Shown: piece after piece, positions 7,403 to 56,506 of the stretch
Numbering within the stretch: position 1 is the stretch's first letter
Layout: every line of letters starts with the position of its first letter
Source: Carcharhinus longimanus
Taxonomy: Eukaryota
Direction: 5' to 3'
Length of the DNA: 64,000 bases
NCBI GenBank assembly: GCA_030264375.1
Contig: JASCQW010000061.1
Location: forward strand, 69,172,882 to 69,236,881
Position numbers and translations under genes: made by a program
Notes under the pieces: generated by a model
The model's input: only the letters and a program-made list of their open reading frames with translations
Databases searched by the model: none
Told to the model about the DNA's origin: nothing

Positions 7403-7464
7403 TTCTTCCAGACTGCTGTACAGGTTCTCTGAACTTCAACTTCAAATGGCAGAGAATGTGTACT
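7403..7464 (-). other. Putative 62-nt exon
   Basis: Minus strand: gtttgtttgccatttatag|AGTACA...GAAGAA|gtaagg. Open in two frames. Confidence 0.5.
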
Positions 7465-7639
7465 CTATAAATGGCAAACAAACTCTACCTTTGTGGATTT
7501 CTTATTAGGATTTTGGACACACAGCTAACCACCACCAAAAAATATGACCTTTGTAGGGATGAAATAGAGTCTCCTTTGCTCCTCCCGCCATTGATAGGAG
7601 CTGGAGTATTTCTTTCCAACAAATAGCAGTTAGATTTCA

Positions 7640-7830
7640 CTTCATTCCTCCTTCTTAGGCAGCCCCTTGGGGTTAAGAATAACCTACTTCCACTCTGGTT
7701 CAATAGGATCCAAATAATTGATAAGTCCAGTGTGTGATCTGCAGACGCTGCCACATGCAGGACAAGTGGCTTTTGGAGGGTCAGGTAATGAGTTGTTCGG
7801 AGGTTTGTGTACTCCCTCCAATGCTTAAAA
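7640..7830 (-). mobile_element. RTE-BovB-like LINE 3' end
   Basis: The minus strand encodes CPACGSVCRSHTGLI, resembling the C-terminal CxxC..RIGLISH motif of BovB-type RTEs; terminus CTTCTTAGGCAG on the plus strand. Confidence 0.7.
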
Positions 7831-7930
7831 NNNNNNNNNNNNNNNNNNNNNNNNNNNNNNNNNNNNNNNNNNNNNNNNNNNNNNNNNNNNNNNNNNNNNN
7901 NNNNNNNNNNNNNNNNNNNNNNNNNNNNNN

Positions 7931-8070
7931 CAAGATGCCTCGCTATTTTCTCCTTGATCACGGATTCTAACATTTTTCCTACAACAGACGTTAAACTAAC
8001 CGGCCTACAATTCCCTGTCTTTTGCCTGTCACCCTTCTTAAACAACGGCGTAACATTAGCCAAGTCATCC
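7931..8070 (-). mobile_element. Young CR1 ORF2 fragment next to a gap
   Basis: ANVTPLFKKGDRQKTGNCRPVSLTSVVGKMLESVIKEKIARHL, the canonical CR1 pre-RT motif. Confidence 0.95.
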
Positions 8071-9834
8071 AAGTCTTCAAAGCATATAGGTTTGTAAGGG
8101 TCACTGCTGCCTACTAAACCATGACCTTAGTCTCGTGTTCAAGATTCTGGTACTTAAATATGATTTTCCTCATAAGGTCAAAGGTTGAGCTGGCACAATG
8201 GAGGTAATAATGAATTTTATCAAACTGTGGCAAACTGAAAGACAGTCATCCTACAGGTGTCAGATATCAAAAGTGCATCTTCAAATCTACCTTTTAAAGA
8301 ACAAGATGGTGGGTCGGAAGGGTGCAAAAGATCCAATTAATGGACACCAACAGTATGTACGTGTTCTTTGGGCTGTCAAAATGTCTGGGCCCAAGCACCC
8401 AGCAGAGGATCTCATCAAGGGTGGCCATCAGTGCTCGTGAGAAAGAACCTTTTGAAGAATTCCTCAATGAGATTCTGGCTTCAACTTGAACGCCCTGAAC
8501 TCCATTTCCCAATATCCCTCCTCATGCCCCTCATCTTGGGGAAAGCTGTGCATGCTGGTACACCACAAGAGTACGGTGACCATGGCAGTATTTGGAAAGG
8601 AAAACGAGCACAATGGGAGTAACGACAGTGGCGTCTCCCTGCTGACTAATAAAAGGAAGATTGGTGACAAGGATCCTCAATAGCCTCCTCCCTGTGGCCA
8701 ATAGGCCCCACCTTTCTATACATCAATAAAACAGTAACCTCCAAAATAAAGATTTCCTTTAGGGCCTGGAAATGCAGCAAAATGGATTCCATGAGCCATG
8801 ATAGTCATGCACAGTCAGAAAGGCATGATATTACATTCATATCATAATTCTCCAACAGCAGTTTGAAAGAATATAGAAAATTCTTAATACTTGCTGCAAC
8901 AGGTTTATGCCTTTGGGTCTATATAAAAGAATGCAACTTCCTAGCAATATGTGACTTTATTCAGTTTCCAAGATGTAACCCTAAAAGGAAAATGGCAATC
9001 CTCCCCTCAACAAACACTTGGGTGAGACTCTTTTGGGATTTGTCTGGTAGAATAGGCAAAGTGCAACTCTGGAAGCACTAGGTATTCTCAAGCTGTTCCC
9101 TAGAAACCTAATCAGTCACAAGCCAAAGATTCTTTTTCATTTCAGAAAGTTTCAAAAACAAGAACGTAATCTTGTTAAGACCCAACTACATAAACAGGAC
9201 TCTGACTCGGAACCGCATGCTTTGGGGACAGCTATTCTGGTTGCATCCTGGGGTTCAGCAATTTGCATGTCACTGCTAACAGCTCAACATCAGTGCGTTT
9301 GACACTTCACATAATGTGACAAAACTATGCAGTAAATTCACAAATGCATGGTTATTTTGTCATAAGGAGGCAGTTTTAGTCCTTTTGCCTGTTTTTTTTA
9401 AGCGGGAACATAACAGGACTCAGATGAAATTCAAAGTGAAGGACTTAATGCTCTGTTCCCACCTGCAATGAGCTGGGAAATAGATCCAAGGCTGTCAGCA
9501 GAAACATGCAATGGTTTCATTTATTTGTATAAGTCGGGGTTCCATTATGTACAACTTTGAAAACGAGTGGTGCCTATTCTACACTATCCCCACTCTCACT
9601 GCAAGGCAGCCAGATTAGTGTCCCTTAAAAGAGACTACTGGGACAACTGCATGGTTTTGGAAGACGAGGAGGGATTTTTTTTTCGTATGTGTTCACAAAA
9701 ACCATATCATCCACTTCATCTTCTGCTGAGCGAATCCCAAGTCCCTTTACGTACAAGTTGCCAGATCAGCTACACAGCTGAGTCGTTTGATTTACTGCCA
9801 CCTCACCAAACATGCATTCCTTTGGCATCATTTC

Positions 9835-10105
9835 ATATAAGCATAGAATGCAGAAGGAAGTCATTCAATCCATTAAGTCTTCACCGACTCATTGACAGGT
9901 ATCTTGCCCAGGCCCCCTCTCTGTAACCCCACACATTTACCATGGCCAATCCACCTACATCTTTGGGAAGAAGCCAGTGCATCCAGAGGAAACCCACACA
10001 GATATGGAGAGAACGTGAAAACTCCACACAATCACCCAAAGCTGGAATTGAACCCAGGTCCCTGGTGCTGAGAGGCAACAGTGCTAACTACTATGCCACT
10101 TTGGC
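9835..10105 (-). mobile_element. HE1/V-SINE-type SINE
   Basis: Reverse complement of the SINE head and V-domain (GGAAACCCACACAGA, AATTGAACCCAGGTCCCTGG). Confidence 0.9.
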
Positions 10106-10159
10106 TTCTCCCATTTTATTTGGGGGTCACCACAATTCTACCTGTCAGTCAGCCATTCC

Positions 10160-10860
10160 TATTCCAATTGTGTGTTCAAGTCTTTTGCGAGTACAGTTTT
10201 TCATCTAACATCAGGCTTTCCTCTTCTTGGCAGTCCCATCGCCATCATCATATTTCCTCTTTCTCCCTCCACTAAACGATCACACCATTTCAATCTCTTC
10301 TCAGTTGCTTTTTTCGATCTCCCACAACCTTCACTAACCCCCTGACGTGCTGATTCCTGATTTTGTCTTTTCTCATTACACCACACATCCATCTAAGCAT
10401 CCACGTCTCATTAGTATCTAGTCATTATTCCTGTCTTCTTAATGTTGCCCAAGTTTTTACACTATTTAAGAAAGCCCATCTCACAGTCTCTTGTAGATTC
10501 TTCTTTTCAGTTTCAGGTGATATTTTTCTATCACAACACTCCACTGCACTTCTTCCAAGTACACCTACCGGAGTTAATTCATTGCTTAATTTCCACGCTT
10601 GTCTTCTGCCAACATTGACTCTTGAAACTACCCTTTCTCCAAGTCTTCGCCCAAAATCTTCACACGTTTACTCTGACCCTCTTTCCGAGGCTCAAACCGA
10701 CAGTCCATTAATTGGCTCTTTGGTTTACTAATCAGCATACTGGTGTCTTCCAATACTTTTCTTCAATTCTCCAGGTACTCAGCCATGTTCTCATTCTTCC
10801 CATCACCCAGCTCAATCATTGACCTCATTCCCTCAACGTCACTGGTAATAATTTGAGTGT
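10160..10860 (-). mobile_element. Degenerate RTE-clade LINE fragment
   Basis: Frameshifted minus-strand remnants MLRWMCGV-RKDKIRN, RLKW and GLPRRGKP, typical of the RTE ORF C-terminus. Confidence 0.7.
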
Positions 10861-11479
10861 TTTGGCATTGGAAGAACGAAAGGTACAATATTTGGATGAG
10901 TAAAACCATTTTTATTATTGCTTAGTAGTATTTGATCACTGTTTTACACTAAGGTTAATATTCATATCTATGCTGATTTTGGGTTAACACATTTGAGGTC
11001 AGGCATTCCACCATCTTCTATAGTCCAGAAAATTCCAAAATCCAGAAGTGACCCAACTATTCCAGACTGGAGAGGTTACAGCGTGTATAAACATGTCTAC
11101 TTTTTAAAAGGACCCGCCTGCATCCCAGCAATGCATTAATGATCTGGTTACAAATAAAGCTGCAAGCCATATTTATGTGAATAAAGAGGTCAGTTATGTC
11201 TCATTAAAGTGATGAAACCTGGTCAATTTAGTTAGTTAATTTATTAGTCACAAGTAAGGCTTACAGTAACACTGCAATTTGAAAATCAGGAAGAAATTAC
11301 ATCCCTAGTTCATGTTTCAACTTTACCATGTGAGCAGAAGTAAGTTTACATCTACCAACCGAAATGATGTAACAGAGCCAAATACTGCTGATAATTAAAA
11401 TACATTTCAATCAAATGAATGCAACAATTGGTTGTTAGTCAATCTTGCTTGCAGTAAGTGAGATTGCAATTCAATCTCC

Positions 11480-12400
11480 AATCTTCACTATATGCTCACT
11501 ACTTTCTACACCACCACACACCCTGCTTCTCGTAGTCCTCTGTTTTACTCTCCCAGAGTCCTTGCCTCTACCGCATCTATTTTGACTATGCCAGTTTCCA
11601 TTCCAGTGTTTCTGATGTCTTCTTTTTCCCTACAACTGAGTCGTCCCCACCCACTGTGGTTGACAAGGATCACAACTATGTTCATTCCATTCCACGCACT
11701 CTGCTCTCAACTCTCTCAAACCCCCAGCAGTCACCTCAGGCTATGAAGCTTTCTTTGTCTTTGCAAACCATCTCAGACTTTACATTCAACGCAAGTCCTA
11801 TCATTTCCACCATCCCCAGCACAATGGCAACACCTAGCGCATCTCTCTGTCCCCACAACTTTCAAATTTTAAAAGGGATCGTTCCCTGGTCCACTCTTCA
11901 ATTGTCCCCAAAACTCCCTCCACTTCCTGTGGCACTTTGGCTCTTTCCTCTCTCCCTTTTTACCACCCAAGACCCCAAACACCTTCCAGATGAAGCAATA
12001 ATTTACTTCTTGTAACTTAATGTTCTGTGTTCACAGTTCACAACAAGATCTCTCTACATTAGGGAGACAAGGACGTTCACCTTATGGAACATCTTCATTC
12101 AGTCCAAACATTACTCCAAGCTTTTAGTTGGGTCATTTCAATTTTCTTCTCCATTCCCACTCCAACTCCTCTTTTCCTCAGTTGCCTATACTGTTCCGAT
12201 AAAATGCAACATCAGCTCCAGGAACAACTACAGCTTTCCAGACTCAGCATCAAGTTCAACAATTTCAGATCAGAACCTCCTTGTCCCACTGCCACCCATT
12301 TTCACTTTGCATTGACATCTCTTGACATTTAATCTTTCCTACCTTCTACCCAATCACCGACCTTCCCTTTTGTTCATTCCTTCCCTCCAAGTTTAACCAG
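11480..12400 (+). mobile_element. Degenerate Penelope-like element (RT C-terminus and GIY-YIG remnant)
   Basis: CTCTACATTAGGGAGAC (LYIxE) ... GAACATCTTCATTCAGTCC (EHLHSV); C-rich plus strand. Confidence 0.65.
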
Positions 12401-12419
12401 ACTTTTTAAGATGGCTATA

Positions 12420-12775
12420 TTTTAAACTGACTCATTTATTTTAAAGGTAAAATGGAGCAGCTTGGAGAAGTATGTGACCTATAGAATCTGCCCAAATCCA
12501 TGTAGCCTCATTATGAGATCTGCCCAGAAACAAGCATGTGCGTCCTGGTTGTGAAACTAAAACTGTATACATTTGCAAAGCTAAGGGCTGAGTAAAGGAG
12601 TACTGTACCAGAATCAAACTTTTCATGTTTAATAAATGTTTTGTTTCTTGTTGTTAAAACTGATAAGGTGTCCTCCATGTTTTCTAAAAATAGTAAAAAC
12701 GTTATGGCCTTTTGAGCCAGGATTTCGTACCGGAATCTTCCTATCCAGTTATAATACCAATTGAGATCGTTAAAG
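12420..12775 (+). mobile_element. LTR-like fragment
   Basis: AATAAA followed by a T-rich segment, similar in character to 3600-3919. Confidence 0.35.
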
Positions 12776-13224
12776 TCTTAAAATGCGATATCTTGTGCAA
12801 TTGCTTTGCATCAGTCACTGGGAAAATTCATATTTGTTTTTAAAAGTTGTCTACGGGGATTGTAAAAAAAAACTACTGATGCATTTCTTTTTAATCTGCA
12901 GATCTTTAAAAAAGGTTGATACAGGGGTAGTGAGTTAAGTATGCTTATATTAAGTACTTATTGCACGGATCCTTATGATGAATGAAAATGTAAAATATCC
13001 CATTACAGAATAATTATTTGTTTAATAGAATACATACCCTAACTCCAAATAATGAGGGATTTAACTTAGTTTATGAAATGTCTGCTTTTAGTATTTGTCT
13101 CTCCTTAAAAAAACATAACCCATTCATGTTTTGTGTCCACACACCCTTACCTATCTCACATCAAATTAATACATCAGTCCTGACGAATTCTGAATCAATA
13201 GTTTCCTCTCGAGAATCCTGCTCC

Positions 13225-14650
13225 TTTAAAGTATCAGGAGGGCATTCAGCCTATCGTGCCCATGTCAGCTCTTTGAAAAAGCTGTCTAATTCTGACCCAC
13301 GTCCCACCATTTTCCCCCTTACCCTGCAAATTAGTCAACTTCAAGTCACATGCCAAATTGTCTTTGAAACCTCCTATGGAATCTGTTTCCACCACCCTTT
13401 CAAGTCAAGCACTCCAGTTAATAACAATCCTCCCTGAAAACAATTGTTTGTTTTATGATTTATTTAAATCGTATGAGCACTAATTACTGATCCACTTGCC
13501 AGCGGCAGCAGTTTCTCCTTCCTTGCTTTATCAAAATCTCAGAGGTCTTAACTTTTCTGCTCTAAGGAGAGCAATCCTAGCATCTCCAATCTCTCCACAT
13601 AACTAAACTTTCTCATCCTTGGCACTGCCTGGTGAATCCTTTCCAAGGCCTTGACATCCTTCCTAAATTGTGGTGCCCAGAAATGTACACAATACTCCAA
13701 CTGAGGCCTATCCAGAATTTTTTTTTTTTAAAGACTTCCTTCTTTTTGTACTCAATGCCCCTATTTATAAAGCAAAGTATCCCTATCCTATACACTTTCT
13801 GAACAGCCTCCTCAACTTTCCCTGCCACCTCCAAGGAGATTCAATCACTTTGTTCTTGCACGACCTTCAAAATGGGATTTAGATTATACCACCTCCATGT
13901 ATTTTCTCCCAAGTGCATAACTTCATATTCATCTGCGCATTTCGCCCGACATGTCCTCCTTATATCTACAACCAATCTCCTCACTTGTTTGTGATGTTGC
14001 CAAGTTTTGGTCAGCTGCATGCTTCAAAAATTCCATCCCTAAACTCAAGTCCAGTCATTTTTATATTAAAAGAAGCAATACTGATCTCTGTGGCCACCCC
14101 CCCACTGCTGTTTCCCATCCCTCAGCCAATTACATATTCCAGGTTACATCATTCATTTAATCCAATGTCCTTTTATCTTCTGGAGTTTGCTTTGTTAGAT
14201 TTTATCTATTTTTAGTGGCACATATATACACAATATCTACTTTACCTTCATTTTACTCACTGTTACTCCATCAAAAACACACATCAGATGAGTCAAATAT
14301 GATTTGCACATAACAATTCCTTCAGTAGCTCTAGCCAGCTACTTTCATAAACTTTCCTTCTCTTAGTCCCTGATCAGTCCCGCCATTCCTTTAATTATCC
14401 TTTTACGTTTAGTACATTTACATTAGAAGGGATTTTTGGGACCCATTTTCTTTCAACCACCCTTTACTCTTATAGTCTCTGTCTTTCTTGTATCATTTTT
14501 CAACTTCCCACCCTGACTCTTCAGTGTCAGCCCGGTTTACTACTATTCTATTCAGTCCCTAATATTGAACATAAACCCCTTTTCCTATTTAATTTAATTG
14601 CTACTTCTTGTGTCATCCAGGGAGTTCTAGTCTTGGAAGTCCTTCAGGGA
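13225..14650 (-). mobile_element. Old CR1 LINE fragment
   Basis: GILCFINRGIEYKKKEV motif (ORF 13613-13834); reverse-complement CR1 tail at ~13235. Confidence 0.85.
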
Positions 14651-14900
14651 AAATGCTTGGTTCTCCTTTAACTGTTTCAACTAATACCCCAACCCCCCTC
14701 CAAACAAACAAAGTCAATAGTCAGGTGATTGAAGTTTTGCAGTATCGTTTTCTCTGGCCTCCAGATTTACTCCTCTATAAGCTCCACAATATCTCTATGG
14801 GCTCTTATGTAAATACCGTCAATCCTTTTCTATTCCTTTACTCTAACCAAATAGATTCAATCTTTAAAGCTTCCAGCATTTCATCCCTGTGTAGAGCTTA

Positions 14901-15028
14901 CATGATGTGGAGATACCAGCATTGAACTGGGGTAAACACACCAGCATCTCCACGTCATGGCTACCATCGACACCGCAAACTGCCGGCTCCAAGTGGAGAA
15001 CATCTCCAAGAAAATCACACATATCGAC
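14901..15028. mobile_element. Penelope-like terminus with inverted pLTR and start of the PLE ORF (MATIDTANCRLQVENISKKITHID)
   Basis: CATGATGTGGAGAT is inverted as ATCTCCACGTCATG; the same terminus occurs at 41816. Confidence 0.75.
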
Positions 15029-15199
15029 CTAGGGCTTCCATCCCAGATATTTCAGTATGTGAGTGTATCCTAGAAACATCTTCAGTACATGCTGTGTGGA
15101 AGGACACCCTCCTCCTTGTGAGATGGTTGCCTGAGTCCTTCGGTCAAGGGCTGCATTCTCAGTGGTTGGTTGTGAAGAATGCAAAAACGTACGTGCAAG

Positions 15200-15745
15200 G
15201 CTCTCCATAAATGCAAGTTTTCACAACGACCAAAGTGTTTAACAGCCAATGGAATATTTTTGAAGAGTGGCTATTGTTGTTTATAGGGAACAGGAGCAAT
15301 TTGACACAGAACTGCAGCACTTAAACTGATGGGCCCAAACCAAGTTATATTCTGCATCCTCCTTAGAAACAGTGGTCCTAATCTACGAGCCTAATCTACG
15401 AATATTTCAATATTCCTTTATACTGCTTTCTTTTAGCCATCCAGCTAACATATTTTTTAAATGTATACCTGGCCTCTGTCTAACCATTAAAACTCTTAGC
15501 ACATTCCACAACCTCAATCAATATTGTGTGTGAAACACATTCCAGTGCTCTCTATTCTAATTTACACAGAAAAGTCTAACAAAAAACAATATAGTTGACC
15601 AGTTAAACAGTTTTGTGGGCGCTGGCTGGCCTTCTCAGCTGTTCAAAAAAAATTATTTTGGGGATCTGTTATGTCCACTTGAACCGGTGAAGGGGACCTC
15701 AGCATCTCATGCAATGGTAACATTCAAGTAAAGCACTTAATAAAA
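15200..15745 (-). mobile_element. Fragments of ancient Deu-domain SINE
   Basis: Reverse-complement motifs ACAGCCAATGGAATATTTTTGAAG and GGGATCTGTTATGTCCACTTGA. Confidence 0.5.
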
Positions 15746-15869
15746 AGTACTTCCATTCTCTACTCATGACCCAAGTTAAATCACCACACACACGATCGAC
15801 TGCAGTGACGGGAGAAAATTCCCATTGACGGCACCTCTGTTGGTATGCATGATACCTCTCTGGCCCTTA

Positions 15870-15995
15870 TCTACAGAATCCTACAGTGCAGAAGGAGGCC
15901 ATTCAGCCCATCAAGCCTGCACCAACGACAATCCCACCCACGCCCTATCCCCACAACCCCATGCATTTACCCCAGCTAGTCCCCCTGACACTAAG
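15870..15995 (-). mobile_element. HE1-type SINE 3' fragment
   Basis: AGAATCCTACAGTGCAGAAGGAGGCCATTCAGCCCATC. Confidence 0.85.
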
Positions 15996-16049
15996 CAGCT
16001 CGCAAAACAAACTGACAGCCTTATATAAGTCAATGCCAAGCATTCATCA

Positions 16050-16400
16050 ACCTATCACTAGACACCAACAGGCCCTTAGATAACTATCAATTCTGCAGAT
16101 GCATTGCAGCAATTCACCAAAGACCCAGAAGAACAAGGGCAGCAGATACAAGGGAACACCACCACCTGCAAGTTCCCCTCCAAGCTACTCACCATCCTGA
16201 CTTGGAAATATATCACCATTCCTTCACTGTCACTGGGCCAAAATCCTGGAATTCCCTTCCTAACGGCATTGTGGGTCAACCCACAGCACATGGACTGCAG
16301 CGTTTCAAGGCAGCAGCTCACCACCACCTTCAAGGGAAACTGGGGATGAGCAATAAATGGGGGCCAGCCAGCGACACCCATGTCCCATGAATGATTTTTT
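16050..16400 (+). mobile_element. Non-LTR retrotransposon 3' end (CR1/Jockey-group shark family)
   Basis: PSFTVTGPKSWNSLPNGIVGQPTAHGLQRFKAAAHHHL-like C-terminus; tail CCCATGAATGA. Confidence 0.85.
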
Positions 16401-18267
16401 TAATCAAATGCTGAATCACTATGATCAAGTTTCATTTAAGACAGATTTGGAGCTATGATTCTTTAATTCAAGCAGATCCATGGTTAGGAGCACAATTACT
16501 TCACTTAGCTTGCAGCAACTAAACTACATCAAATCGTTGGTTTATTCTAAGGCTGAACACCAAAATGTAACTTAATAAAGAATAAAAATCCTGTAACAAG
16601 TAGAAACAGATTTTTCTGACTTCCTTGCGCTTCTGCCTCTACTCTGAGTCCCGTCACTTAAACAACAGTAAAATTCAACCAGACATGGTACTATATCAAT
16701 CAGGATTTCTGCTCCGAGTTATTTTTAAATGATGCTTATCCAGGTGCCAAGATGAAGATAGAGTCTGCCCAACCAAAATGAACTCCCCAGCTAACAATCT
16801 GTCGACACACTCCAAGAAAGTGTGCATGGGCATCGAAAAGATGAAGGGACAATCTTTTCAGCCATATCTTCATTTCAACACCGAGCACATTTTTGCCAGA
16901 AAAGTCACTGACCAGTGATTGGGAGAAGGAATTCTGGCTGATTTTTTTCTCCCTTTCTCAGTACAGGAATGCCGAAGCCAACTGTACCATCAACGCCAAC
17001 TAAAATGCACCAATTCAATCGCCTTTGGAATAGATCAGTCAGTGTCAATGAGATACTAGATATGCACTAATACAAGTACTGCACCCTCCATTAATCATAT
17101 AAAATGAAAATACATGTTACAATATTCATCAGCATGAGAAAGGTTTAAAAAATTCATTAACTTCATTGGTGCCGAAACTAAGGGAAGCAATTTTAATAAG
17201 TGAGGAAGAAAATAAGAAAAAAGCAAGCAAATTCAGCATCAAGCAGATAAACCTTGCCAAGATGTGGCAACTAAATGGTGTTCTAGATTTACTTCACAAC
17301 TCTTGATTTTTCTCAAGTACACAGAGCTGCTCTCTTAAAATCATTTTAACAAGAAAATTAGCACTGAAGAATTTTAAGTAGATTAAATAATATTATTCAG
17401 TTTCTCTCCATCAATGAATATATTTACAGGTCTGCATTTAGGCAGAAGCTATGAATTTTTACAACACTGCATTAAGCACTGGTCAGTGTTAAAAATTAAA
17501 TACAGGGTTATGCAGTTCCTTTGAAAGTTTTTACATTGATAGTTGCATACACTTACGTAATATTNNNNNNNNNNNNNNNNNNNNNNNNNNNNNNNNNNNN
17601 NNNNNNNNNNNNNNNNNNNNNNNNNNNNNNNNNNNNNNNTGGTGCAACGTTTGCCAAAGCATTGTTGTCCAATACACGTGGATAATTTTATGCACATGTT
17701 CTTCAATGTTTTTGTATGTTTTTTTTATTGTGTCATATTAGCAGCATGCAAATGTTTTTGGTTATGAATGATTTACCACTTTAGGTGCCATGACAAGAAT
17801 TCAATGACAAAGACATTTTCCAACAGCTGCTTTCTAAACACACAGTGCATTTCTCCTACCATCATTTACACCACAATGGCTGCTGCCTTGCCTTTGTGAT
17901 AACAGAATGTCTTATCTACATATTCAACTTTTACAATCATATAAAACCTTTATAATCTGTAGCCAGTAAAGGCAGCTTATAACACGCTCACATGCATTCA
18001 AGTATTTAGTTCTTGTCCATGGCCTTTGCTTCGTCAAGCAGTGAAAAGGCTCAGAAGATGGCACCACCACAAAACTACTGTAATAAAAAGCTTCTTTTGT
18101 TCATGAAAGCACAGATGGCTAAATACTCTAGCAACTCATTTACTCCATTAAAATTGTAACCATTTTATCCACTATATAAATTTAAAATATTGCCATTCAA
18201 GGCAGCAATTATTTAGCTAAGTGGACTTGGTGCACAGGTAGGAATCACAATCAAAAATCAGACTCAC

Positions 18268-18423
18268 AAACTGGACTTGAGTGGTTGTCTGGATACAAAG
18301 TTTAGATTTCAATTCCTTCAATAGTCTGTGGTGCAGCTTCTGCTTTTTGAACCTCCCCAACTGCTCAGACATGTCCTGTCCTGAAGTTTCAATGGCCTCA
18401 ACTGCCAATTCACATCACCGATT
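18268..18423 (-). other. Putative 5' UTR exon, 156 nt, carrying an ATG-initiated frame open to the donor (MSEQLGRFKKQKLHHRLLKELKSKLCIQTTTQVQF)
   Basis: Minus strand: ttcctgtgcctttccag|AATCGG...CAGTTT|gtgagtc. ATG at 18372, 35 codons, phase 0 at the donor. Confidence 0.7.
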
Positions 18424-21400
18424 CTGGAAAGGCACAGGAATTCCAAGGCATAAAATGCAAATGCATTTTTTCCCCACTATTTCAGAGTTTGCTTAAAATA
18501 ATAAAAAAAACTAGGGGAGATCTGTGCTCACTCAGTTAAGCAATTCCCTAAAATTTGTGAAAAATATTTGTATCCATTACTCTCCAGAGAGGGGTGGAAG
18601 GCAAACACTACATTTCCAGTGATTATGAGAAATATAAGCCCCCTTCTCCCTATCAAGTGTAGTTTTGCATGCAGAAGCAGCAAAAAGAAGTCTCAATTTG
18701 TGTGCAATCTTATATAATACAATAATTCTGCAGTTGTACAATTTCTTTACATGACATAATTTGGCATTTATTTAAACTTCCTTTTTTTTTTAAACAAAGA
18801 ATTGCAACACTATTAGAGATGAATGCGATTCTCAATATTCTATCTGGAAAACACATTTCAATGCAGTTGGAAAACTTTCAATTAAGCTCAAAGTTTCCTT
18901 TTACTATCTATTGAGATTGGACCACAAGAAGTTTACTCAAAAATAATCTTTCTGGTTCACGTGTCATCACGATAAATTACAAGCAACATTCGGGCTCCAC
19001 TAGGTTAAGTTTCAGTTTATTTTGGGAAGGGAAATGGGCCGTGCTGTGAATTTTGCATTCCTACAACTCACTGGCAGTTAAGACACACCTACATCAAGAA
19101 TAGAAAGTAAGAGTATAAGATAGCTCTCTGTACTCTTGCACAACAATATGCTTCACCTCCAATCTCAAAAAAGTGTCCCCTGTAACACAACTGCTTTCAT
19201 CATCCTCAGTGGCCATCAATGAATGGCGTGCAAAAAAAAAGCTCATGTAACCAGTACAGCCAGACATAACAGATAGATACCAAGAGCAGAGGAAAAATTG
19301 TACAAGTCTACCACGGCTCATGTGCATTTTAGCAACAATGGCTCAGCAAGTCTGCATTAGAAGATCAGAGTTCTAAGCACCACTGTCAGAGCTTCCATAA
19401 GCAGCAGTGTCACCAGGGGCATTTTTCACTAATTTCTTAACGATATTAATCTAAACACAAAATGTGTTTGTGTTTAGATTAAACACCACCTCCACCAGCC
19501 CTCAACAAGGCCTCCAAATCTGATCGACCTTATCTATATCACACCACTCCTCCAAAATAAGAATTTATCTCCTCTTACCTTCTCTTCCTCTCTTCCATCT
19601 CCAACACTTTATCTTCCCTCACTCAGCCTCTAACCCTCCTCCGCTTTCTTTCTTCCCATCTCTAAAACAACGTTGGCCCCCAGCCCTCCCCCACTGGCCT
19701 TTTTAGGCTTCCACTATTCAGAGTTCTTAACTGATTCGGGTCCCATTGCACACTGCAATCTAAACACCACATGCTCTTCATTCCCCAATAGGCCAAGTGA
19801 TTGTCTAATAACATTAAAAAAATCTTACCTCTACTTACCCTTCCGGTTAAGTGTTTCCATTTTTAATGGCAACGTCCACATTTATAACAGAAGTTGCACC
19901 TATACTTCCTGCCATTGGTGGTATGGCACCTCACTTCTGAATCACCCAAATCATTTGCCTGTGCAGAAAAACGGCGTTACTCCAACCAACTCTAATCTTC
20001 CTAAATTTCCAGCTTTTGTTGTTCAAATGTAAATGATGCAAAATTAAACAATAAAGGAAAAAAAGCCTTTAAAATGACAAGTGAATCACATTGGCATACC
20101 CTGATCCAATGACCCCTAACCACAAATCCCATTTTATATGAAGAATGCACGTGACCAACTAGTATTGTCCAACAAAGGTGATAAACCAAAGCTGGTTAAG
20201 TACAGACCCAACTAATCTGACAGTGGGAACAGAAACAAGCTTGATGATGAGCTACTTTGAGTTTTACAGGTGATAGAAAGTCTATAAAAGGGGGCAAATA
20301 AAAATTCAGACCCTAGCATTCACTTCAATTCAGAAAAGGGCCCTTTTTTTATTCTGAACCCCATAAAAATCAAGGTAAATAACAACCAACAATTACCGAT
20401 TTAACTCTGATGCCACTAGTTACTTGACCCCTTTACTTAAACAAAATCGAAGAAAATACACTTATTATTGTGCCTCCAGTGACTACGGCAGTGGCATTGT
20501 GAAGGCAACTGTTATATGCTTTTGTCAAACAACGTTTCAGTGCGTCACCCAAATCAACCTTCGATCAATGGCATTACCTCAGGAATTCCTGTGTAATAAA
20601 TGTAGCAAGAATAAACTGATATTTGCTGCAGTGTAAAGAATAGTTCTCAAAACAGTATCTAAAGATCTGGTATTGAATTCCATCTTCCACTGTTAGAGAT
20701 AATTAAAATCAATTTCTACCAATTTCCACTAATTAAAATGCCAGGTCTTTTTTCTGATGATTTGTTAACTATTTAGTGAAGTTAAATCATAATTGTAGGA
20801 CAAGGGAACATAGACATAAACTGTCAAAAGCAAACTCCAGGCCCGAGTCAGTGGTAAAAATTATGGGGAAGAATTTTGTTTCAGTAGGTAGCACTCTCCC
20901 CTGGAAGAGACAACGCTGTGGCTTACTTCCTGCCCAGTGTCCTTCAGCGTCAGTGAAGGCGGTTGCACAGCCCACACTGTTGTCTAGCCTAAGACGGTCC
21001 ATGTAGCCTTCTTACTGCTGTAACAACCCAACTCCCCATGACCCTTGTGAAGTTTAGGGGAGAGGGAGATCTAAGAAACTAATGGGATATAAAAACTGTT
21101 ATCTTTGGTCTTTTGGTTGGTCAAGTAAAAGGCAGTTAAAAGGGCTACAAAGAATAATTCATATCAGAAATGGTTTTCTATTTAAGGTGGTAATGGCAGA
21201 AACTGGATTAAATGGATGTTATGATGATGCAATCTAGTTTCCAGAAGGCTTCCCCTTGTGATCTGTACTTGAGCCTGCGACATTTCAACCAGTCAGAGAT
21301 TATATCGTATAAAATCAATCTCACAACCAGAAATGAGGTCAGCCATAAAAATGGAGAATGATGGGAAAAGATACAGATCAACAAAGCACTTGAAAAGTGA

Positions 21401-22679
21401 TATAGGTTAGTATTTCAGTTGGGAATCTTCAGAGCTGATGCAACTGGTAGGTGGTCAAATTATTTTGGATTTATACAGTAACATTTCAGCTCATGCTTAA
21501 GCTTTCTTGGTGCTTGGGTAGTGGGGGTCAGGGTGCAGAAAGGAGAAATATTCCATTTTTTCACTGCTTATGTCTCCTTTTCATCCAGCTAATATTAATC
21601 CAGCAGTTAAATGGATTAAACAGTTTGGACCATTTACTAATTAACACCAATCAATCTCTAATTAACTAGTGAGCTTCTGAATCAGCAAAGGCAGTTTTAT
21701 GCCTATTTTCTTTATGCCCAGCCCTTGACTCTCTATTACCATTCCGTTCCACAATTAACGAATGGGGTGCAAAGTAATAAAATTGGTTTCATGTAGTCAG
21801 ATGATCTGAAGATTTGATGACATCTCAGCTGGACACACTGATACCTTTATAACTAGTAAATCACTATGAATCCGTGATAATCCATATTGCACAATTGTGT
21901 GAGACACTTTGCCTTCAAGAGTAGCAGCAAAGATGGTATAGATAAGCTATGGATATACAAATTAAAAAACCTCTACAAAACTACCAATGAGAAATCTCAA
22001 GGATACATGAAAAGCAACCAGTCCTGAATTAGCAGTCAGGAGGAATGAACCAAACGTATCAAAAGGAGACTGATGATTTTTCACCATCTTTTCTCCCCTC
22101 TTATGTCCTAACACTAGCCCAGCTCAAAATAAGATTCACAATCATATGCAAAAATCATGTTTCTCACAGAAATAACAGTTAAAATGACTATGCTTCTGCA
22201 GCAGCTTCAGGAACACTTTAATTTGAAGGCATCAGCATCTCTTATCATGATATGGTCTTGATATATTTCCCCAAATGTTCATTGTCAGCTAAAGAGGGAG
22301 ATGGTATACAGTAAGGAGCATGTGCATCATGCACAATTCACAGCATGCCTCAGCCAGATTCTCCTGAAAAATGATTGTGAGCTGCTTTATCATTCCAAAT
22401 GATCTCAAAGCACACTGAAAGAATGAAATGATGCAGTTCAGCTCAAATCACTTTTCATATTCTAGTGTGTTTACCAAGTGTTTAACCAGTTTCATGTAGT
22501 CAGAAACTATTTTGTTTGATTTCCAAAAGAGAGATATGCAAATTGGTCACTGCTACTTATAAATCTAAATAAGTGATTATTTAAAGAGGTTTTCTCAATG
22601 GAAATGACGGCAAACCCCTATTCTCTTCATTTAGCTTCCAATGCAGGTTTGTAATTTTGGGTCAAATTTGGGTGGACAA

Positions 22680-23610
22680 ACATACAACTTCAGAGCAGGA
22701 GTGGGCCATTCAACCACTCAAACCTGCTCCACCATTCAGTAAGATCATGGCTCTTCTGACTGTGACTTCACTGCCACGTTCTTTCCTACTCCCTTATCAA
22801 GCACGAATCTATCAGCCTTAAAATATTCAATAACCCTGTTTCCACTACTCTCTGGGAAAGAGTGTTCCACAGACTTGGGATCCTTGGAAAGTAATTCTCC
22901 TTGTCTCTCTCTGAAATGGAAGTCCACTTCTTTATTTTTAACACTGCCTGCCAGTTCTAGTCTCTCACACAAGGGGGAACANNNNNNNNNNNNNNNNNNN
23001 NNNNNNNNNNNNNNNNNNNNNNNNNNNNNNNNNNNNNNNNNNNNNNNNNNNNNNNNNNNNNNNNNNNNNNNNNNNNNNNNNCTCAGCATCCTCTCTGGAT
23101 CTGTCTGTCAAGTCCTCTCTGGGTCTTGCGTGTAAGGTCACCTCTAATTCTTCTAAACTCAGTGGATATGGCCCAACCTGTCCCACCTTTCTTCATCTGG
23201 TTTCACCACCCCACCCCCCGAACTAATTCTAATGCAATTATGTCTTTTTTCAAATAAGATTAAAACTGTGCACTGTACTCTAGATGTGGTCTCACCAATA
23301 CCCTAAACAACTACAGCAAAACATCCCTACTTTCATATTCCATTTTGACCTCCAGAAAACAACAATATTCTATTCGTCTTCCTAATTACTTGCTGTAACT
23401 GACTTTTTGTGATTCATGTACCAAAACACATAGATGGCACTGTACCTTGGTGCTCTGCTATCTCTCTGTTTAAATAATATGCTGTTTTTCTATTCTTCCT
23501 GCCAAAAGGGATAAATTCACATTTTTCCAAATTTTACTCTCATCTGCCAAATTTTTGCCCACTCAATTTATCTCCCTTTGCAGACTCATGTCCTCTTCCT
23601 CAGACTCTGT
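22680..23610 (-). mobile_element. CR1 LINE fragment spanning a gap
   Basis: Reverse-complement tail GAGCAGGAGTGGGCCATTCAACC; CACTGTACTCTAGATGTGGTCTCACC (VRPHLEYSAQF-like). Confidence 0.85.
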
Positions 23611-24244
23611 CCTCTTAGTCAAAGGGTCAAGTGGCCTTCTCCTACACCCAAGTCCAATATTCCTGCATTCCTATAGAAACAAAGGTATCAAGCTCAAGTT
23701 GTCTTTTTTTTAAACGTTTAGTACAGCCAGTATTCCAGTTGCTGCAATGGATAAGTGTTGAGATTTTTAAAACCTCTAATTAATAGGTGCAAGAACAAGG
23801 GCGGAGAGCAACGGGTTTCGCTTGCCAATTTTTGCTATTCTTATCCTAAAGGCATTGACCTCTTGCTAAGATATGAGCCAGACACTTTCGGCAGGCAGAC
23901 CTGCAAAGTCACAGCTTAGAATCTGCAGCCAGCAACGAACAAGCTGAACCACTTTCATTCATTTACAGCTACCCACAGGCATCAAGTGGACTTCTGCACA
24001 GCAACTTGCAGTAATTAGAAAGCCAGTCCAACGTGGGCACACTTAGCCAGGGATCTGTGGGCATGGAAAATAACATCCGACATGTCTCTTCAACCAGACT
24101 GAACAATCCTTACTGAGATGCACAGTCTAAACCAGCATTGCATTGATAATTCAATACAAAAATCATGCACATGGAGTCAGGAGGGGAAAAAGAGTTGAGA
24201 TTGAGGGGGGAAGAGAATCAAAATCAAAAATCTTGGGTTTTATT

Positions 24245-25287: not shown

Positions 25288-25714
25288 CCTGGTTTCTTAC
25301 ATTCCTGCAAGAATTAAATTCTAAAGAAATCAGAGTTCACACTTGCAGAACTCAGATTGTTTGACAGTAATTAAAACATATGACACCATTAAAAATTTAT
25401 TTACATTTGAATTAAGTTTTTTCTGCTTGTTTAATGGGTAAGCAAAGCAATTTCACAATTTTCTAATTGATTTAATGCAGTCATTCGATGACATACCTAT
25501 GTAGCTAAGCTTCTGGAGAAGATCAAATCAAATCCTATTCCTGGGTTCTCCATTGTACTGCACGGATGCTGAAGTTTGTGTTTGATTTACTCCATAATAA
25601 CTGTGATGCTGATAGTTGTGACATGAAATTTAGACCATTATTTATGCAAGCCTCAACAATGAAGGTTAGCAAGTTGCTTGTGGATCTTCACGATAGGAAT
25701 ATTAAAATGTTCTC

Positions 25715-48920: not shown

Positions 48921-48929
48921 AGAAAAAGA

Positions 48930-51420: not shown

Positions 51421-51471
51421 AAGTTGCTTTTAGAAAAAAATGAAATAAAGTGAACGAGAAAAATAGTTAAA

Positions 51472-52529: not shown

Positions 52530-53800
52530 ATTTTTTAATTTGTGATCAGGATGTAGGTGCCATTGGCAGGCCTGCATTTAATAGCAATCCAGAGTTGCCA
52601 TCAATGGTAGGCCTTTTCTTTCAATCATTCCATCAAGCTGGCATTTGTAATGCCATATTAAAACACAGCTTCAATACTGAAACTGCTGTTTTTCAAATGA
52701 GATGCCAGGTATTAAACCAAGGTCCTGCAAACTGAGAACAAGTTTAAGTAAATATTAAATATGCACAGCTCCCATGATGGCTTTACACAAAAAATTCTAG
52801 GATACTGATCCAGCAACAATAAACATGTTCAAAAGAATGATATGCAACTTTGAAGGGGAAAAATGTCATTTTGACATTGCTGCTTTTGTCCTTCTTTGAG
52901 GTCTCAGGGCAAGCAGAACTGTGAAATAACATTGACAAGTTGCTGAAATATGCTGTACATAGTTAGTACTTCATTCACGCTGCAGCAATGGTAAAGGGGG
53001 TGAATATTGAGTTCTGCAGCAGGGGTTTTTATAGGCTGGACTACTTCATCCTGGACAGCTTTGAGCTTCTTTGATGGCATCTTTTCAACGCAAGCATGGA
53101 GTAGAGTATTACATTGGTAACTCGGCTTTATAGGGGCTAAGCAGTAAGAGGAAGTGAAATAGTGTTCTCAGATTCTGCCCCAATTTTGTAGCCAATGTCA
53201 ATGGGGTTATAAGAACATAAGAAATAGGAGCAGGAGTAGGCCATCTAGCCCTTCGAGCCTGCCCCGCCATTCAATAANNNNNNNNNNNNNNNNNNNNNNN
53301 NNNNNNNNNNNNNNNNNNNNNNNNNNNNNNNNNNNNNNNNNNNNNNNNNNNNNNNNNNNNNNNNNNNNNNNNNNNNNATCCATCCCCTTCATGATCTTAT
53401 ACGTCTATATAAGATCCCCCCGCATCTGTCTAAACTCCAAGTCACTGGACTAAGTCCAAAGTCCAAGGTTCTAAACTCCAAGTCAAGACTCCAAGTCAAC
53501 TCCAAGGGTTAGTCAATTAAAATCTTGGTCAAAGGTGACCTTATTTGACTGATGATAAAGGATGCAGTAATAATGACCTCCTAGCAGCCAATAGCTGAGT
53601 ATGAACCACTTATATGTGGAACAAAAATTACCCATCACTTGTCACCTCATGCCAGGAGGCTGTCCAGGTCTCCTGTAGATTGGTAAAGGCTGCTTCCTTA
53701 TTGGAGTTGTGAATGAAGCTGGACACAGGACACATTACAATCTTCAGCAAATGGCCCCACTCATGTTAACAAAGAAAGTCAACAAAGGAGTGATCCACCC
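52530..53800 (-). mobile_element. Old non-LTR fragment (16050 family) with nested young CR1 at 53210-53440
   Basis: GGCCTGCATTTAATAGCAATCC tail; CR1 tail ATAAGAACATAAGAAATAGGAGCAGGAGTAGGCC. Confidence 0.75.
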
Positions 53801-54254
53801 AAAACCAGATCCTCTGCTCATTTCTCCATGTCTTGCACTTTCCACTTCAGTTGTTCCCAAGAGTCTCGCATTTTCAATTTCAATGAGCAATATGATAACA
53901 GGAAACAATACACGAGGCCTCATGTGTTATTAAATTCCCTTTCCCAATAGATTGCATACCTGGAAACAATAGTTCTTCCTCAGGGTTCTAGATCTTCTGC
54001 CATCACCACTGAAAATTCTCTGTTTCTGCCATGGCTCATAATTCTGAGTTGGGGACTGTCACCCAGACCTGGGGCCCAATTGTAGCTTTAAAAGGAACTC
54101 CATTAATGATCTGCCTCCAACAATCTGGCCATCTTCTTGCAATCCGGAAGATTTTCCTATCGACTTGTTTTGCTAAGGTTTCTTGCTGGGAAAAAAACAG
54201 TTTAGAGCCATACTGGGCATCAAAAACAAAAAATGCCTTTTGCTTTTTAAAAAG

Positions 54255-54455
54255 ATGATGGCTGAAATTTTTCAGCTAGTACCGCCAGCAGAAACTTCAG
54301 ATCCCATCAATGGTGACTCCCCACAATGCCCTGGTGGCAGAGTGTTTGGGGTATACAAAGTCCTGTAGATATCAGCGGGACCAGAAGACAGCACCATCGG
54401 CCAATGGCAGAACCACTGAAATATGCCATGGGGGTGTGCATAAGAAAATCTTATC
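54255..54455. mobile_element. GC-rich MITE remnant
   Basis: GGCTGAAATTTTTC ... GAAAATCTTATC; internal CAGCGGGACCAGAAGA shared with 31700. Confidence 0.5.
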
Positions 54456-54610
54456 ACTGGAGAAATGACTTACATTATTACAAAATATTTTCCAATGTCA
54501 ATAAAACAAAACTTTAATGTTTCATTTCAATCTTCAACTAGCCATTTAAGTTTGTAGTTGAGGTAATGAAATGCTACAGAAACTGAATTAACCAGACCAA
54601 GAAAGCTCAC

Positions 54611-54725
54611 CTTGAATCAGCTCAGTTTGTGTGTGTAGGGAAACATGGAACTTGTTGGACAACCTATTTCACTGACTTGCAACCTGGTTAGGCATCTCTC
54701 AGTAGCACAGCTGAACACAATGAAT
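54611..54725 (-). other. Putative 5' UTR exon, 115 nt (147 nt if the alternative acceptor at 54757 is used), with short uORFs MPNQVASQ* and MFPYTHKLS*
   Basis: Minus strand: caattctttgccag|ATTCAT...TTCAAG|gtgagc. A second acceptor tctctttttggattgtgtaatag lies upstream, preceded by a UG-rich tract. Confidence 0.65.
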
Positions 54726-56004
54726 CTGGCAAAGAATTGCGATGTGATCAACGTTATCTATTACACAATCCAAAAAGAGAATCCAAGCACGCACATCAAC
54801 ACACACATACCCAACAAATTACAATAAAACAGTACGTCCTTTTAGGCATTTTCAAATATTAACATAATTGCTTTGTTTTTCAAATCTTACTCAGGATTTT
54901 TGCTTCCTTTCTCTCACTTCCCCATCTGGTCTCATTTTAGTCCAGATGGTGAAACCACCTGGACATCTCCACAACTGCTTTCTAAACCTTAATATAAGCC
55001 AACAGGAGGCACACTTTGCGGTGCAGTCGCTCTTCTTGCCAATTTCACTTTGCCCCAAAGTGAAATAATGACTCAGCCAAGAGTAAACAAAAGTCAGCCA
55101 TTGAGGGGAGCTGTTTTTGGATGGCATCAAGATTGATATCCTCTCCAAGCCGTGTCCTAACATTCACTACATTTAGGTTACGACAGCGTACAGTGTAATG
55201 CCTTAGCCTGATAATGATGATGGCTAATTCTGAAAAGGTACCAAGCTTTATAAATGAAGATTTTCACCTAGGTAATCAAGTTACTATTTGCTCACTCTTG
55301 TTGAATTGCGCTCACTAGACAGACAATTAGGGGGAAAAATGTTGTTTGGTAAAATACAATTTGGCCAAGAAACCCAAACAATGCTGCTTAACTATATTTA
55401 TACTGACTGCAGTAAAAAACTGAAATTATTACTTTCATTCCTGTCTTTTTGAAGTCTGATGTAAAGAAAACCTCCAGCTCCATTTTCATAATTAATACAA
55501 GGACACCAGCAAGCAACCTTAAACCAACCACTGCTGAAATGAAGTAAACGAGAGCACATTCTGAAAGCACGCAGTAGCTTATCGCCTCTGTGATCTATCC
55601 AGCGATAGCTGACAAGCTAGCTACACAGGTCTTCTAAAACTCAGGACAGTCGAGTAATTCAAAACTCCAATGCTTTCTTTTCCAAATGCTTAAACAGAGT
55701 TCCCTGTTAACAAAGGTCATAATTAGCTTACAATTGTGTGATTTAAAAGCCAAGTTATCCTCTAATCATATAAAACATTGTTGGTTAATCAAATTTTGTG
55801 AGTAAAATATTGCTAGTTATAAGATTCAAATGAGATTTGAATTTGAATCAGATCTGCTCACATTTTAAAATCTTCCAATGAAAACATCAAGTTATATAGA
55901 ATCGAAGACAGAAAATGACAAAGCCACCACCACTTGTATTACATAAAAGCATAAAATTGTGTAATATTTTAATTCTGTTTTTTGTAATGAAAACAGTGAC
56001 AAAC

Positions 56005-56330
56005 GTAGCCCATATTCATTGCAGAGCTGAGCAAATGTTCCATTGAGAGGTGCCATCATTTGGATGCATTGTTAAACTAGTAGCTAAAGATCCCATGGCA
56101 GTGTTCAGCAACAGAAGAGTTCTCGCTGTGTCCCAGCCAACACGTATCCCTTAACCAGCAACACAAAAATAGATCTAGTCATTTATCTCATTTTCAGTCA
56201 CACAACCTTGTTGATCCCAAATTCTGCCATGTTTACGCACATTAGAACACAAAGTACTTTATTGGCTGCAATGCATTATGGGATATCCTGAGGGTGTGAA
56301 GCACTTTATAAACAACAAGTTTTTTCTTCC
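56005..56330 (+). mobile_element. Deu-domain SINE (best-preserved copy)
   Basis: GAGGTGCCATCATTTGGATG..GTTAAAC..AAAGATCCCATGGCA..CCCAGCCAAC..GTACTTTATTGGCTG..TATAAACAACAAGTTTTTTCTT. Confidence 0.7.
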
Positions 56331-56426
56331 TACAGTACAGGCCTTACGCACCAATGACAATTTGGAGTACTATAAACTCTTAACAGTTAAAACCATGTGG
56401 AAAAGAAAATCAAAATTTTAACATAC

Positions 56427-56506
56427 CTTGGCTTTACTCCAAAAACACCCCTAGGGCATTTCGGTTGCAATATGATTGACAATCTTCAGACATTATCCTC
56501 CTCACT
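56427..56506 (-). other. Putative 5' UTR exon, 80 nt, containing uORF MSEDCQSYCNRNALGVFLE* (56493-56434)
   Basis: Minus strand: attttctttggcag|AGTGAG...GCCAAG|gtatgt. Good polypyrimidine tract and donor; stops in all three frames. Confidence 0.7.

What the first reader, a model, noticed from the sequence alone, without database searches (positions are those of the whole stretch)
7403..56506. Hidden multi-exon, uORF-loaded 5' leader spread over ~49 kb (PEAK1-like)
Seen: four minus-strand exons with strong splice signals, embedded in repeat-poor islands of otherwise TE-saturated DNA. Spliced together they carry at least six upstream ATGs: a 19-aa uORF with A at -3, MP*, MPNQVASQ*, MFPYTHKLS*, an ATG-TGA start-stop and a longer uORF. 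Inference: this is a translational-control leader. The size and spacing pattern recalls the human PEAK1 5' UTR, which would imply conservation of non-coding exons across jawed vertebrates.
Basis: partly seen in the sequence, partly recalled or inferred. Interest (0 to 1): 0.7.

Follow-up and report, generated by a model that had tools for sequence, protein, structure and literature searches.

The report
Shark NCOA2 leader, not PEAK1
This is the long non-coding front end of a shark's NCOA2 gene (a helper of hormone receptors), not PEAK1: one of the four proposed exons is spliced in a close relative's transcript contigs, the other three have no support, and its short upstream reading frames likely damp translation in an ordinary way, although one in the true first exon lines up with a translated human one.

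Summary
The four segments and six ATGs exist as described, but the gene is NCOA2, not PEAK1. Six ATGs in 413 nt is below the local mean of 8.4 (P≥6 = 0.80). A crude matrix ranks the segments 19th-54th among look-alikes in the interval. B, C and D are neither supported nor excluded. The 'longer uORF' has no stop within the four exons. The better lead lies outside the window. Exon 1 holds a strong-context 22-codon uORF that matches the human Ribo-seq uORF c8riboseqorf61 in place and in S-x-A-K-V-S at residues 10-15, though that ORF is catalogued as primate-young. Verdict: an ordinary alternatively spliced leader with uORFs, and one possibly ancient uORF. The scan noted similar shark leaders on other DNA (SLC20A1, HIVEP3).

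The parts
56427..56506 (-). Exon A, 80 nt: non-coding leader exon of NCOA2 (supported at its 5' end). Its upstream partners, exon 1 and cassette exon X, lie right of the window (L030, L027) and the coding exons left of it (L002 onward); see Noticed in passing.
   Evidence: Contigs in runs X1 and X16 lie on its first 30-31 nt without a mismatch and continue into the end of exon 1 or of exon X. Acceptor 7.3, donor 9.2 bits. Its 3' junction was not seen.
56434..56493 (-). uORF of 19 codons in exon A (A at -3, T at +4); stop ends 7 nt before the donor
   Evidence: translation not tested
56451..56459 (-). MP* uORF nested in the 19-codon uORF in another frame (G at -3)
54611..54725 (-). Segment B, 115 nt, candidate exon with MPNQVASQ* (54695-54669) and MFPYTHKLS* (54646-54617); unsupported
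   Evidence: Sequence; rank 22 by splice score; no junction seen
18268..18423 (-). Segment C, 156 nt, candidate exon with ATG-TGA (18415-18410) and an ATG at 18372 whose frame stays open through D; unsupported
   Evidence: rank 36; no protein or family hit
7403..7464 (-). Segment D, 62 nt, candidate exon without ATG; unsupported
   Evidence: rank 54; its bin was swamped by a neighbouring repeat

Best explanation
The window is intron DNA of the NCOA2 5' leader, in which exon A is spliced to a CpG-island first exon either directly or through an 89-nt cassette exon, and the leader's three upstream ATGs likely lower NCOA2 translation by ordinary leaky scanning and reinitiation, while segments B, C and D are probably look-alikes or rare exons. 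SHOWN: gene identity; the exon 1-A joint; the X-A joint; the ATG positions. INFERRED: the exon 1-X joint (contig length); that A splices on to the start-codon exon, which was not readable in this assembly; that the cap lies upstream of the exon-1 ATG. INFERRED mechanism: most scanning ribosomes would start at the exon-1 uORF (A-3/G+4) and translate 22 codons. Those that reinitiate or leak meet the exon-A ATG (A-3/T+4) 37 nt later without X or 126 nt later with X. That second uORF ends 7 nt before the end of A, so on a direct path it would end about 26 nt before the main ATG (if the start exon has 19 nt before its ATG, a figure recalled from human), too close for efficient reinitiation. Only ribosomes that pass both would make NCOA2. 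The net effect would be a constant brake on a dosage-sensitive coactivator, perhaps shifted a little by inclusion of X.
For: Gene: Pfam NCOA_u2, SRC-1, DUF1518 and bHLH_NCOA. PDB best hit is NCOA2, 27 of 28 identical. The top 35 of 120 listed hits are cartilaginous-fish proteins named NCOA2, 79-94% identical. Eighteen colinear tblastn blocks. Joints: two contigs in each of X1 and X16 (organism A, studies P1 and P10) end exactly at A's acceptor and continue with 28 of 28 letters of exon 1 or 30 of 30 letters of exon X, 93 and 59 kb away, at canonical GT/AG ends. In 8 cartilaginous fishes one identical NCOA2 protein carries 3-4 or more RefSeq accessions, as expected of alternative UTRs (5' versus 3' not told). 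97 of 107 rows examined start at the canonical Met. Human NCOA2 has a Ribo-seq uORF at the 5' end of the gene (PMC10032668 supplement row). Reinitiation falls with uORF length beyond 13-18 codons and is best at 80-90 nt spacing (PMC6614817 passages). B-D are not exceptional by splice score, and the ATG count is below chance.
Against: The contigs have 28-31 letters on the shorter side, just under the tool's 31-letter rule for bridging. Their RNA nature is a guess by the tool, and organism A is a close relative, perhaps not this species. No translation data exist for the shark. The same paper shows efficient reinitiation after a 58-codon ORF with 42-nt spacing, so the spacing rules are soft.
Confidence: 0.68

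Rival explanations
1. One reading: exon 1-(X)-A-B-C-D is a main NCOA2 leader. C's last ATG would then not be a uORF but would likely give NCOA2 an N-terminal extension of about 62 residues, because D ends in phase 2 and the pre-ATG codons of the start exon are open in two other sharks.
For: All four have canonical ends in the score range of true exons, are single-copy and sit in repeat-poor DNA. A proved real. No A-only contig was laid, which fits a single unbranched path that could include B-D. The frame is open from C through D. Heterodontus and Stegostoma models read through the pre-ATG codons.
Against: None of 107 rows has this extension. The 5 extended ones (two species) match none of A-D. 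The C reading frame found no protein (a weak test) and no Pfam family. 35 and 45 antisense look-alikes score as well as C and D. The phase rests on a recalled 19-nt figure.
Confidence: 0.14
2. The leader exons are real but their ATGs are nearly neutral: exon A's uORFs are lineage-specific by-products, the exon-1 ATG lies too near or upstream of the cap, and the S-x-A-K-V-S match reflects a conserved DNA element rather than a uORF.
For: The ATG count is not above chance. The shark codons for K-V-S spell AAGGTCA, a nuclear-receptor half-site, and the start reads ATGGCGG, a YY1-like promoter word (sequence; motif names from my knowledge). A TATA-like TTTAAA lies only 21 nt before the ATG. The human catalogue has no NCOA2 uORF other than the first-exon one (2 NCOA2 rows in 6 files) and classes that one as young.
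Against: The human uORF is called translated by Ribo-seq and has a PhyloCSF mammals score of +11.16. Start, frame, motif register and a stop shortly after are all shared with the shark. Strong-context uATGs generally repress (established knowledge).
Confidence: 0.17
3. PEAK1 5' UTR conserved across jawed vertebrates.
For: None found; only the recalled likeness of exon spacing.
Against: The downstream coding exons are NCOA2. The longest minus-strand stop-free run in the readable 200 kb to the left is the 381-codon NCOA2 exon. The human PEAK1 uORFs are unlike the six ORFs.
Confidence: 0.01

Closest known systems
Human NCOA2 (SRC-2/TIF2/GRIP1) 5' leader with Ribo-seq uORF c8riboseqorf61 (24 aa, chr8:70403713-70403787; PMC10032668 supplement row)
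   Same: Same gene. Both have one ATG uORF of 22-24 codons at the 5' end of the gene, starting M-A, with S-x-A-K-V-S at residues 10-15 in register (7 of 22 identical). A CpG-island first exon followed by small non-coding exon(s) and very long introns is, for human, recalled and not checked.
   Different: The shark has a cassette exon X and an exon A with two more uATGs; the catalogue lists no second NCOA2 uORF. Homology of A or X to a human leader exon could not be tested. The catalogue classes the human uORF as 'primatomorpha - young'.
ATF4/GCN4 delayed-reinitiation leaders (my knowledge; named in PMC6614817)
   Same: A first uORF in strong context followed by a second uORF close to the main start.
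   Different: uORF1 is 22 codons, not about 3. uORF2 ends before the main ORF rather than overlapping it. No stress control is shown.
Conserved-peptide uORFs (CPuORFs; ESUCA, PMC7530721, abstract start seen, supplement unreadable)
   Same: A short in-register peptide motif shared by distant vertebrates.
   Different: Only two taxa compared and identity is low outside the motif. No Ka/Ks and no peptide-dependent repression were tested.
Human PEAK1 5' leader (uORFs c15riboseqorf75 and 76)
   Same: A multi-exon leader with uORFs spread over long introns.
   Different: Different gene; no peptide likeness.

Membership tests
PEAK1 5' leader | Downstream coding exons encode PEAK1 (very large first coding exon, pseudokinase) | tested here: not met
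   Downstream exons are NCOA2; longest stop-free run to the left is the 381-codon NCOA2 exon
PEAK1 5' leader | uORF peptides like the human PEAK1 Ribo-seq uORFs | tested here: not met
   Two PEAK1 rows of the catalogue resemble none of the six ORFs (by eye)
PEAK1 5' leader | Nucleotide homology of the exons to vertebrate PEAK1 mRNA | not testable with these tools
   No vertebrate mRNA collection can be searched
NCOA2 (p160 coactivator) locus | N-terminal bHLH exon | tested here: met
   Pfam bHLH_NCOA E 2.2e-30
NCOA2 (p160 coactivator) locus | Receptor-interaction region with LxxLL boxes and C-terminal p160 domains | tested here: met
   NCOA_u2 E 2.5e-30, SRC-1 E 1.4e-25, DUF1518 E 4.3e-23
NCOA2 (p160 coactivator) locus | Closer to NCOA2 than to NCOA1 or NCOA3 | tested here: met
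   27 of 28 identical to an NCOA2 peptide, better than NCOA1 hits; top 35 rows named NCOA2; no tree built
NCOA2 (p160 coactivator) locus | Start-codon exon between the leader and the bHLH exon | tested here: inconclusive
   Not found in readable DNA; 77% of that interval reads N
Multi-exon spliced 5' leader | Exon A joined to upstream exons in transcripts | tested here: met
   2 of 4 runs, two studies, exact canonical joints; shorter sides 28-31 letters
Multi-exon spliced 5' leader | Joints A-B, B-C, C-D and D-start exon | tested here: inconclusive
   None seen; filter and repeat swamping prevent a negative
uORF-enriched translational-control leader | More upstream ATGs than neutral DNA | tested here: not met
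   6 in 413 nt against 8.4 +- 3.3
uORF-enriched translational-control leader | uORFs translated and repressive | not testable with these tools
   No shark Ribo-seq or reporter; only the human first-exon uORF is catalogued as translated
ATF4/GCN4 delayed-reinitiation switch | Very short permissive uORF1 | tested here: not met
   22 codons
ATF4/GCN4 delayed-reinitiation switch | Inhibitory uORF overlapping or abutting the main start | tested here: inconclusive
   The exon-A uORF ends 7 nt before A's donor; A's downstream partner is unknown
ATF4/GCN4 delayed-reinitiation switch | Induction on eIF2-alpha phosphorylation | not testable with these tools
   Needs a reporter under stress
Conserved-peptide uORF (exon-1 uORF) | Peptide conserved across distant taxa beyond chance | tested here: inconclusive
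   AKVS at 12-15 in 2 of 7522 local ATG ORFs, one being this; rough chance of any in-register 4-mer about 1e-3; only human and one shark; DNA-level constraint not excluded
Conserved-peptide uORF (exon-1 uORF) | Purifying selection on codons and peptide-dependent repression | not testable with these tools
   No orthologous DNA; the table gives PhyloCSF mammals +11.16, primates 0.01 for the human ORF

The most novel reading that the evidence does not exclude
The NCOA2 first-exon uORF, catalogued as primate-young, is at least as old as jawed vertebrates and keeps an S-x-A-K-V-S motif under selection on its peptide. In sharks it is the first step of a two-uORF reinitiation switch whose spacer is set by splicing: an ATG-free 89-nt cassette exon moves the second, inhibitory uORF from 37 to 126 nt behind the first stop, so exon choice would tune coactivator dose without changing the protein.
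Probability: 0.15. Interest if true: 0.55.

Novelty: new member of a known kind. Interest (0 to 1): 0.27.

Why it matters
As given, the finding is ordinary: many transcription regulators have long, alternatively spliced leaders with uORFs, and here the gene label is wrong and the ATG load is at chance. The work adds two things. It gives a partly evidenced leader structure for a shark NCOA2 (exon 1, cassette X, exon A). It also gives a testable hint that a human uORF filed as evolutionarily young has a counterpart in place, frame and a short motif in a shark. If that holds, peptide-similarity pipelines underdate such uORFs, and NCOA2, a dosage-sensitive steroid-receptor coactivator, has carried a translational brake since early jawed vertebrates. 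I found no paper on this uORF's function. Four full-text searches gave 2, 0, 0 and 2 papers. The one I opened concerns a different, internal NCOA2 start. Subscription papers and unread supplements were not covered.

Tried and rejected
PEAK1: rejected on gene identity. Start-codon exon: motif and tblastn searches of the window and its left flank did not find it; most of the interval reads N. Sequencing runs: no listed holder is on record as RNA (22 runs listed), so 'RNA' is the tool's guess. First laying (7300-27290; X1, X2, X4, X17): repeats swamped the tables (15 of 179 joints and 24 of 2333 loose ends shown). The bin with C had depth 0.17, 0.38, 0, 0, like other repeat-free bins, and D's bin was unreadable; no conclusion drawn. 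Second laying: no piece on B in 4 of 4 runs and none on the last 50 nt of A; a hole proves nothing because of the human-likeness filter. N-terminal extensions: 5 of 107 rows have one (Heterodontus 41 aa, whose start resembles a repeat found at 5 places in the 464 kb; Stegostoma 12 aa); none maps to A-D. Those 107 rows include 2 unrelated ENA sequences and 3 that start downstream. A search of shorter proteins with the NCOA2 N-terminus gave 54 hits, none with an A-D-derived extension. The C reading frame run into its intron (51 codons): 7 candidates, none at E<=10; no Pfam hit for it or for the exon-1 uORF (one of the four references in that call pointed at a wrong stretch and was redone). An LxxLL reading of 'KLHHRLLKEL' in C was rejected: the spacing does not fit. 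Tandem repeats: 7 short rows, irrelevant. Neighbours gave only weak synteny: a C2H2 exon downstream and a TLC-domain start upstream (E 0.019), PRDM14 and TRAM1 by recall. Papers: PMC4568590 supplements gave 2 NCOA2 rows, neither in the leader; 7 of 16 files were not searched and file 10 was cut. The PMC7530721 supplement was unreadable and could list this uORF. One recalled paper id was not held. The PEAK1 search listing (15 of 29) and the reinitiation listing (12 of 29) were seen as titles and abstract starts. Earlier findings near this place and in relatives: none.
Full report
Setting. The window is G000:C61:69172882-69236881 of a 2.68-Gb assembly, about 32-46% GC in 2-kb bins, with no CpG island. 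Its proteins are closest to those of sharks. I fetched 200 kb on each side. Positions outside the window are given by extending the window numbering.

Observation. The four segments can be reconstructed: A 56506-56427, B 54725-54611, C 18423-18268 and D 7464-7403, all with AG/GT ends. Joined they give 413 nt and exactly the six ATGs described. Each matched only itself in the genome. A, B and C sit in stretches with no local repeat match within 1 kb, which holds for 16% of window positions. Only 18-20% of the window matches repeats in the surrounding 464 kb (a lower bound), so 'TE-saturated' is not shown.

Chance. Random 413-nt pieces of the same strand hold 8.4 +- 3.3 ATGs and 80% hold six or more. 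The load is that of neutral DNA. It may be high for a selected UTR, but it is no sign of design. With an approximate, recalled splice matrix the four score like the 17 coding exons of the locus (median acceptor 6.1, donor 8.8 bits). They rank only 19, 22, 36 and 54 among non-overlapping candidates of the interval, and the antisense strand offers 11, 13, 35 and 45 of 132 candidates as good. The 'longer uORF' has no stop in the four segments.

The gene. Left of the window on the same strand lie a bHLH exon at about -8.1 to -8.3 kb (Pfam bHLH_NCOA, E 2e-30), a 381-codon stop-free stretch at -44.8 kb with NCOA_u2 and SRC-1 hits, and a DUF1518 exon at -79 kb. The large exon matches a human NCOA2 peptide at 27 of 28 residues, better than NCOA1. 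The top 35 of 120 listed homologues (892 in all) are cartilaginous-fish NCOA2 proteins. A Mustelus NCOA2 maps in 18 colinear blocks from residue 30 on. The exon with residues 1-29 was not found; 77% of the interval between window and bHLH exon reads N. PEAK1 is excluded.

The real leader. The nearest CpG island is at about 148.5-149.7 kb, 85 kb right of the window, with a strong donor at 149344 (10.8 bits). I laid contigs of four runs on 53700-59100; all 18 pieces were listed. In X1 and X16 (organism A, two studies; 0.89-0.90 of the coding words shared) two contigs lie on the first 30-31 nt of A without a mismatch and leave it exactly at its acceptor. One continues with 28 letters identical to the end of the CpG-island exon, skipping 92.8 kb. 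The other continues with 118 letters whose first 30 are identical to the 3' end of an 89-nt exon at 116058-115970; its length fits 29 nt of exon 1 plus X. So exon 1-A and exon 1-X-A both exist, at similar contig depths (4.1 and 5.5 in X1; 15.5 and 29.9 in X16; a poor measure). Against this: the shorter sides are just under the tool's 31-letter bridging rule, RNA is a guess, and X2 and X6 showed nothing on A. What follows A is not seen. The onward contig is missing in both runs, most simply because it runs into human-like coding sequence and is filtered. That no A-only contig was laid suggests one unbranched path, which could be A to the start exon or could contain B-D. The laying on 7300-27290 was swamped by repeats and decides nothing. 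In eight cartilaginous fishes one NCOA2 protein carries three, four or more accessions, so further minor UTR exons are plausible. I put B, C and D at roughly 20-35% each.

If C and D were used. D ends in phase 2, and Heterodontus and Stegostoma gene models read through the codons just before the canonical Met. C's second ATG would then probably be an in-frame extension of about 62 residues and not a uORF; this rests on a recalled 19-nt pre-ATG length. None of 107 rows shows that extension and a direct search found nothing (weak).

uORFs on the supported path. There are three ATGs: in exon 1 (A-3/G+4, 22 codons, stop 24 nt before the donor), and in A (19 codons, A-3/T+4, ending 7 nt before the donor; MP* nested in it). 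X has none, but it lengthens the gap between the first stop and the exon-A ATG from 37 to 126 nt. Reinitiation is reported to fall beyond 13-18 codons and to be best at 80-90 nt, with clear exceptions (PMC6614817, passages). The likely working is a two-step brake by leaky scanning and partial reinitiation. All translation steps are inferred, and the cap position is unknown: a TATA-like word only 21 nt before the exon-1 ATG could put the start very near or past it.

Comparison with human. The supplement of PMC10032668 (rows; passages) has two NCOA2 rows, one internal ORF and one uORF, c8riboseqorf61: 24 aa, 'primatomorpha - young', no MS study, PhyloCSF mammals +11.16. 'Young' there means no significant protein homology in non-primate mammals. 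That uORF and the shark exon-1 uORF both start M-A and share S-x-A-K-V-S at residues 10-15 (7 of 22 identical, by eye). AKVS at 12-15 occurs in 2 of 7522 local ATG ORFs, one being this, and any in-register 4-mer has a rough chance near 1e-3. This argues for common descent of the exon-1 sequence, not yet for selection on the peptide. The shark codons contain AAGGTCA, a nuclear-receptor half-site, next to a YY1-like start word (names from my knowledge), and I could not see the human bases. That the human ORF lies in exon 1 follows from its coordinates at the gene's 5' end and from recall. No human counterpart of the exon-A uORFs is catalogued. The T-cell preprint (10.1101/2025.07.31.667903, passages) describes another, internal NCOA2 start with uORFs. 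Searches for NCOA2 with uORF terms gave 2, 0 and 0 papers, and one for uORF with elephant shark gave 2 on another gene (listing only). Supplements that I could not read (PMC7530721; 7 files of PMC4568590) may list this uORF as conserved.

Verdict. This is the alternatively spliced 5' leader of NCOA2, a new member of a well-known kind. One of four exons is supported, the uORF load is at chance, and the PEAK1 label is wrong. Interest 0.27.

Noticed in passing
L030:5436-5344 (extended window numbering 149436-149344, minus): 3' part of the CpG-island first exon of NCOA2 (donor at L030:5344), joined to exon A in contigs. It holds a 22-codon strong-context uORF (L030:5436-5368) that lines up with human c8riboseqorf61 (S-x-A-K-V-S at 10-15); its codons contain an AAGGTCA half-site.
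   Followed up: partly
L027:2058-1970 (extended window numbering 116058-115970, minus): 89-nt ATG-free cassette exon X of the NCOA2 leader, found from a contig's loose end; acceptor inferred, and followed by two more ACAG words 4 nt apart.
   Followed up: partly
L002:1876-1704 (about 8.1-8.3 kb left of the window, minus): bHLH exon of NCOA2, the first readable coding exon downstream of the leader.
   Followed up: yes
   Followed up: no
window 16404-22678, 25300-29249, 53278-59157, 59193-63467: Long islands with no local repeat match; they could hold conserved intronic enhancers of NCOA2; not testable here.
   Followed up: no
L014:263-3 (about 130 kb left of the window, minus) and L035-L036 (extended numbering about 198-206 kb, minus): A C2H2 zinc-finger exon downstream and TRAM-like exons with a CpG-rich bin upstream: the order PRDM14-NCOA2-TRAM1 as recalled for human; only weakly tested.
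   Followed up: partly
P0011, P0185 (Heterodontus); P0129, P0131, P0133 (Stegostoma): Annotated N-terminal extensions of NCOA2 that read through the pre-ATG codons; the Heterodontus one starts in a repeat-like sequence found at 5 places in this region, probably an exonised repeat.
   Followed up: partly
window 55162-55327: One unspliced 166-nt contig at depth 2 in run X16 within the A-B interval: pre-mRNA or DNA background.
   Followed up: no
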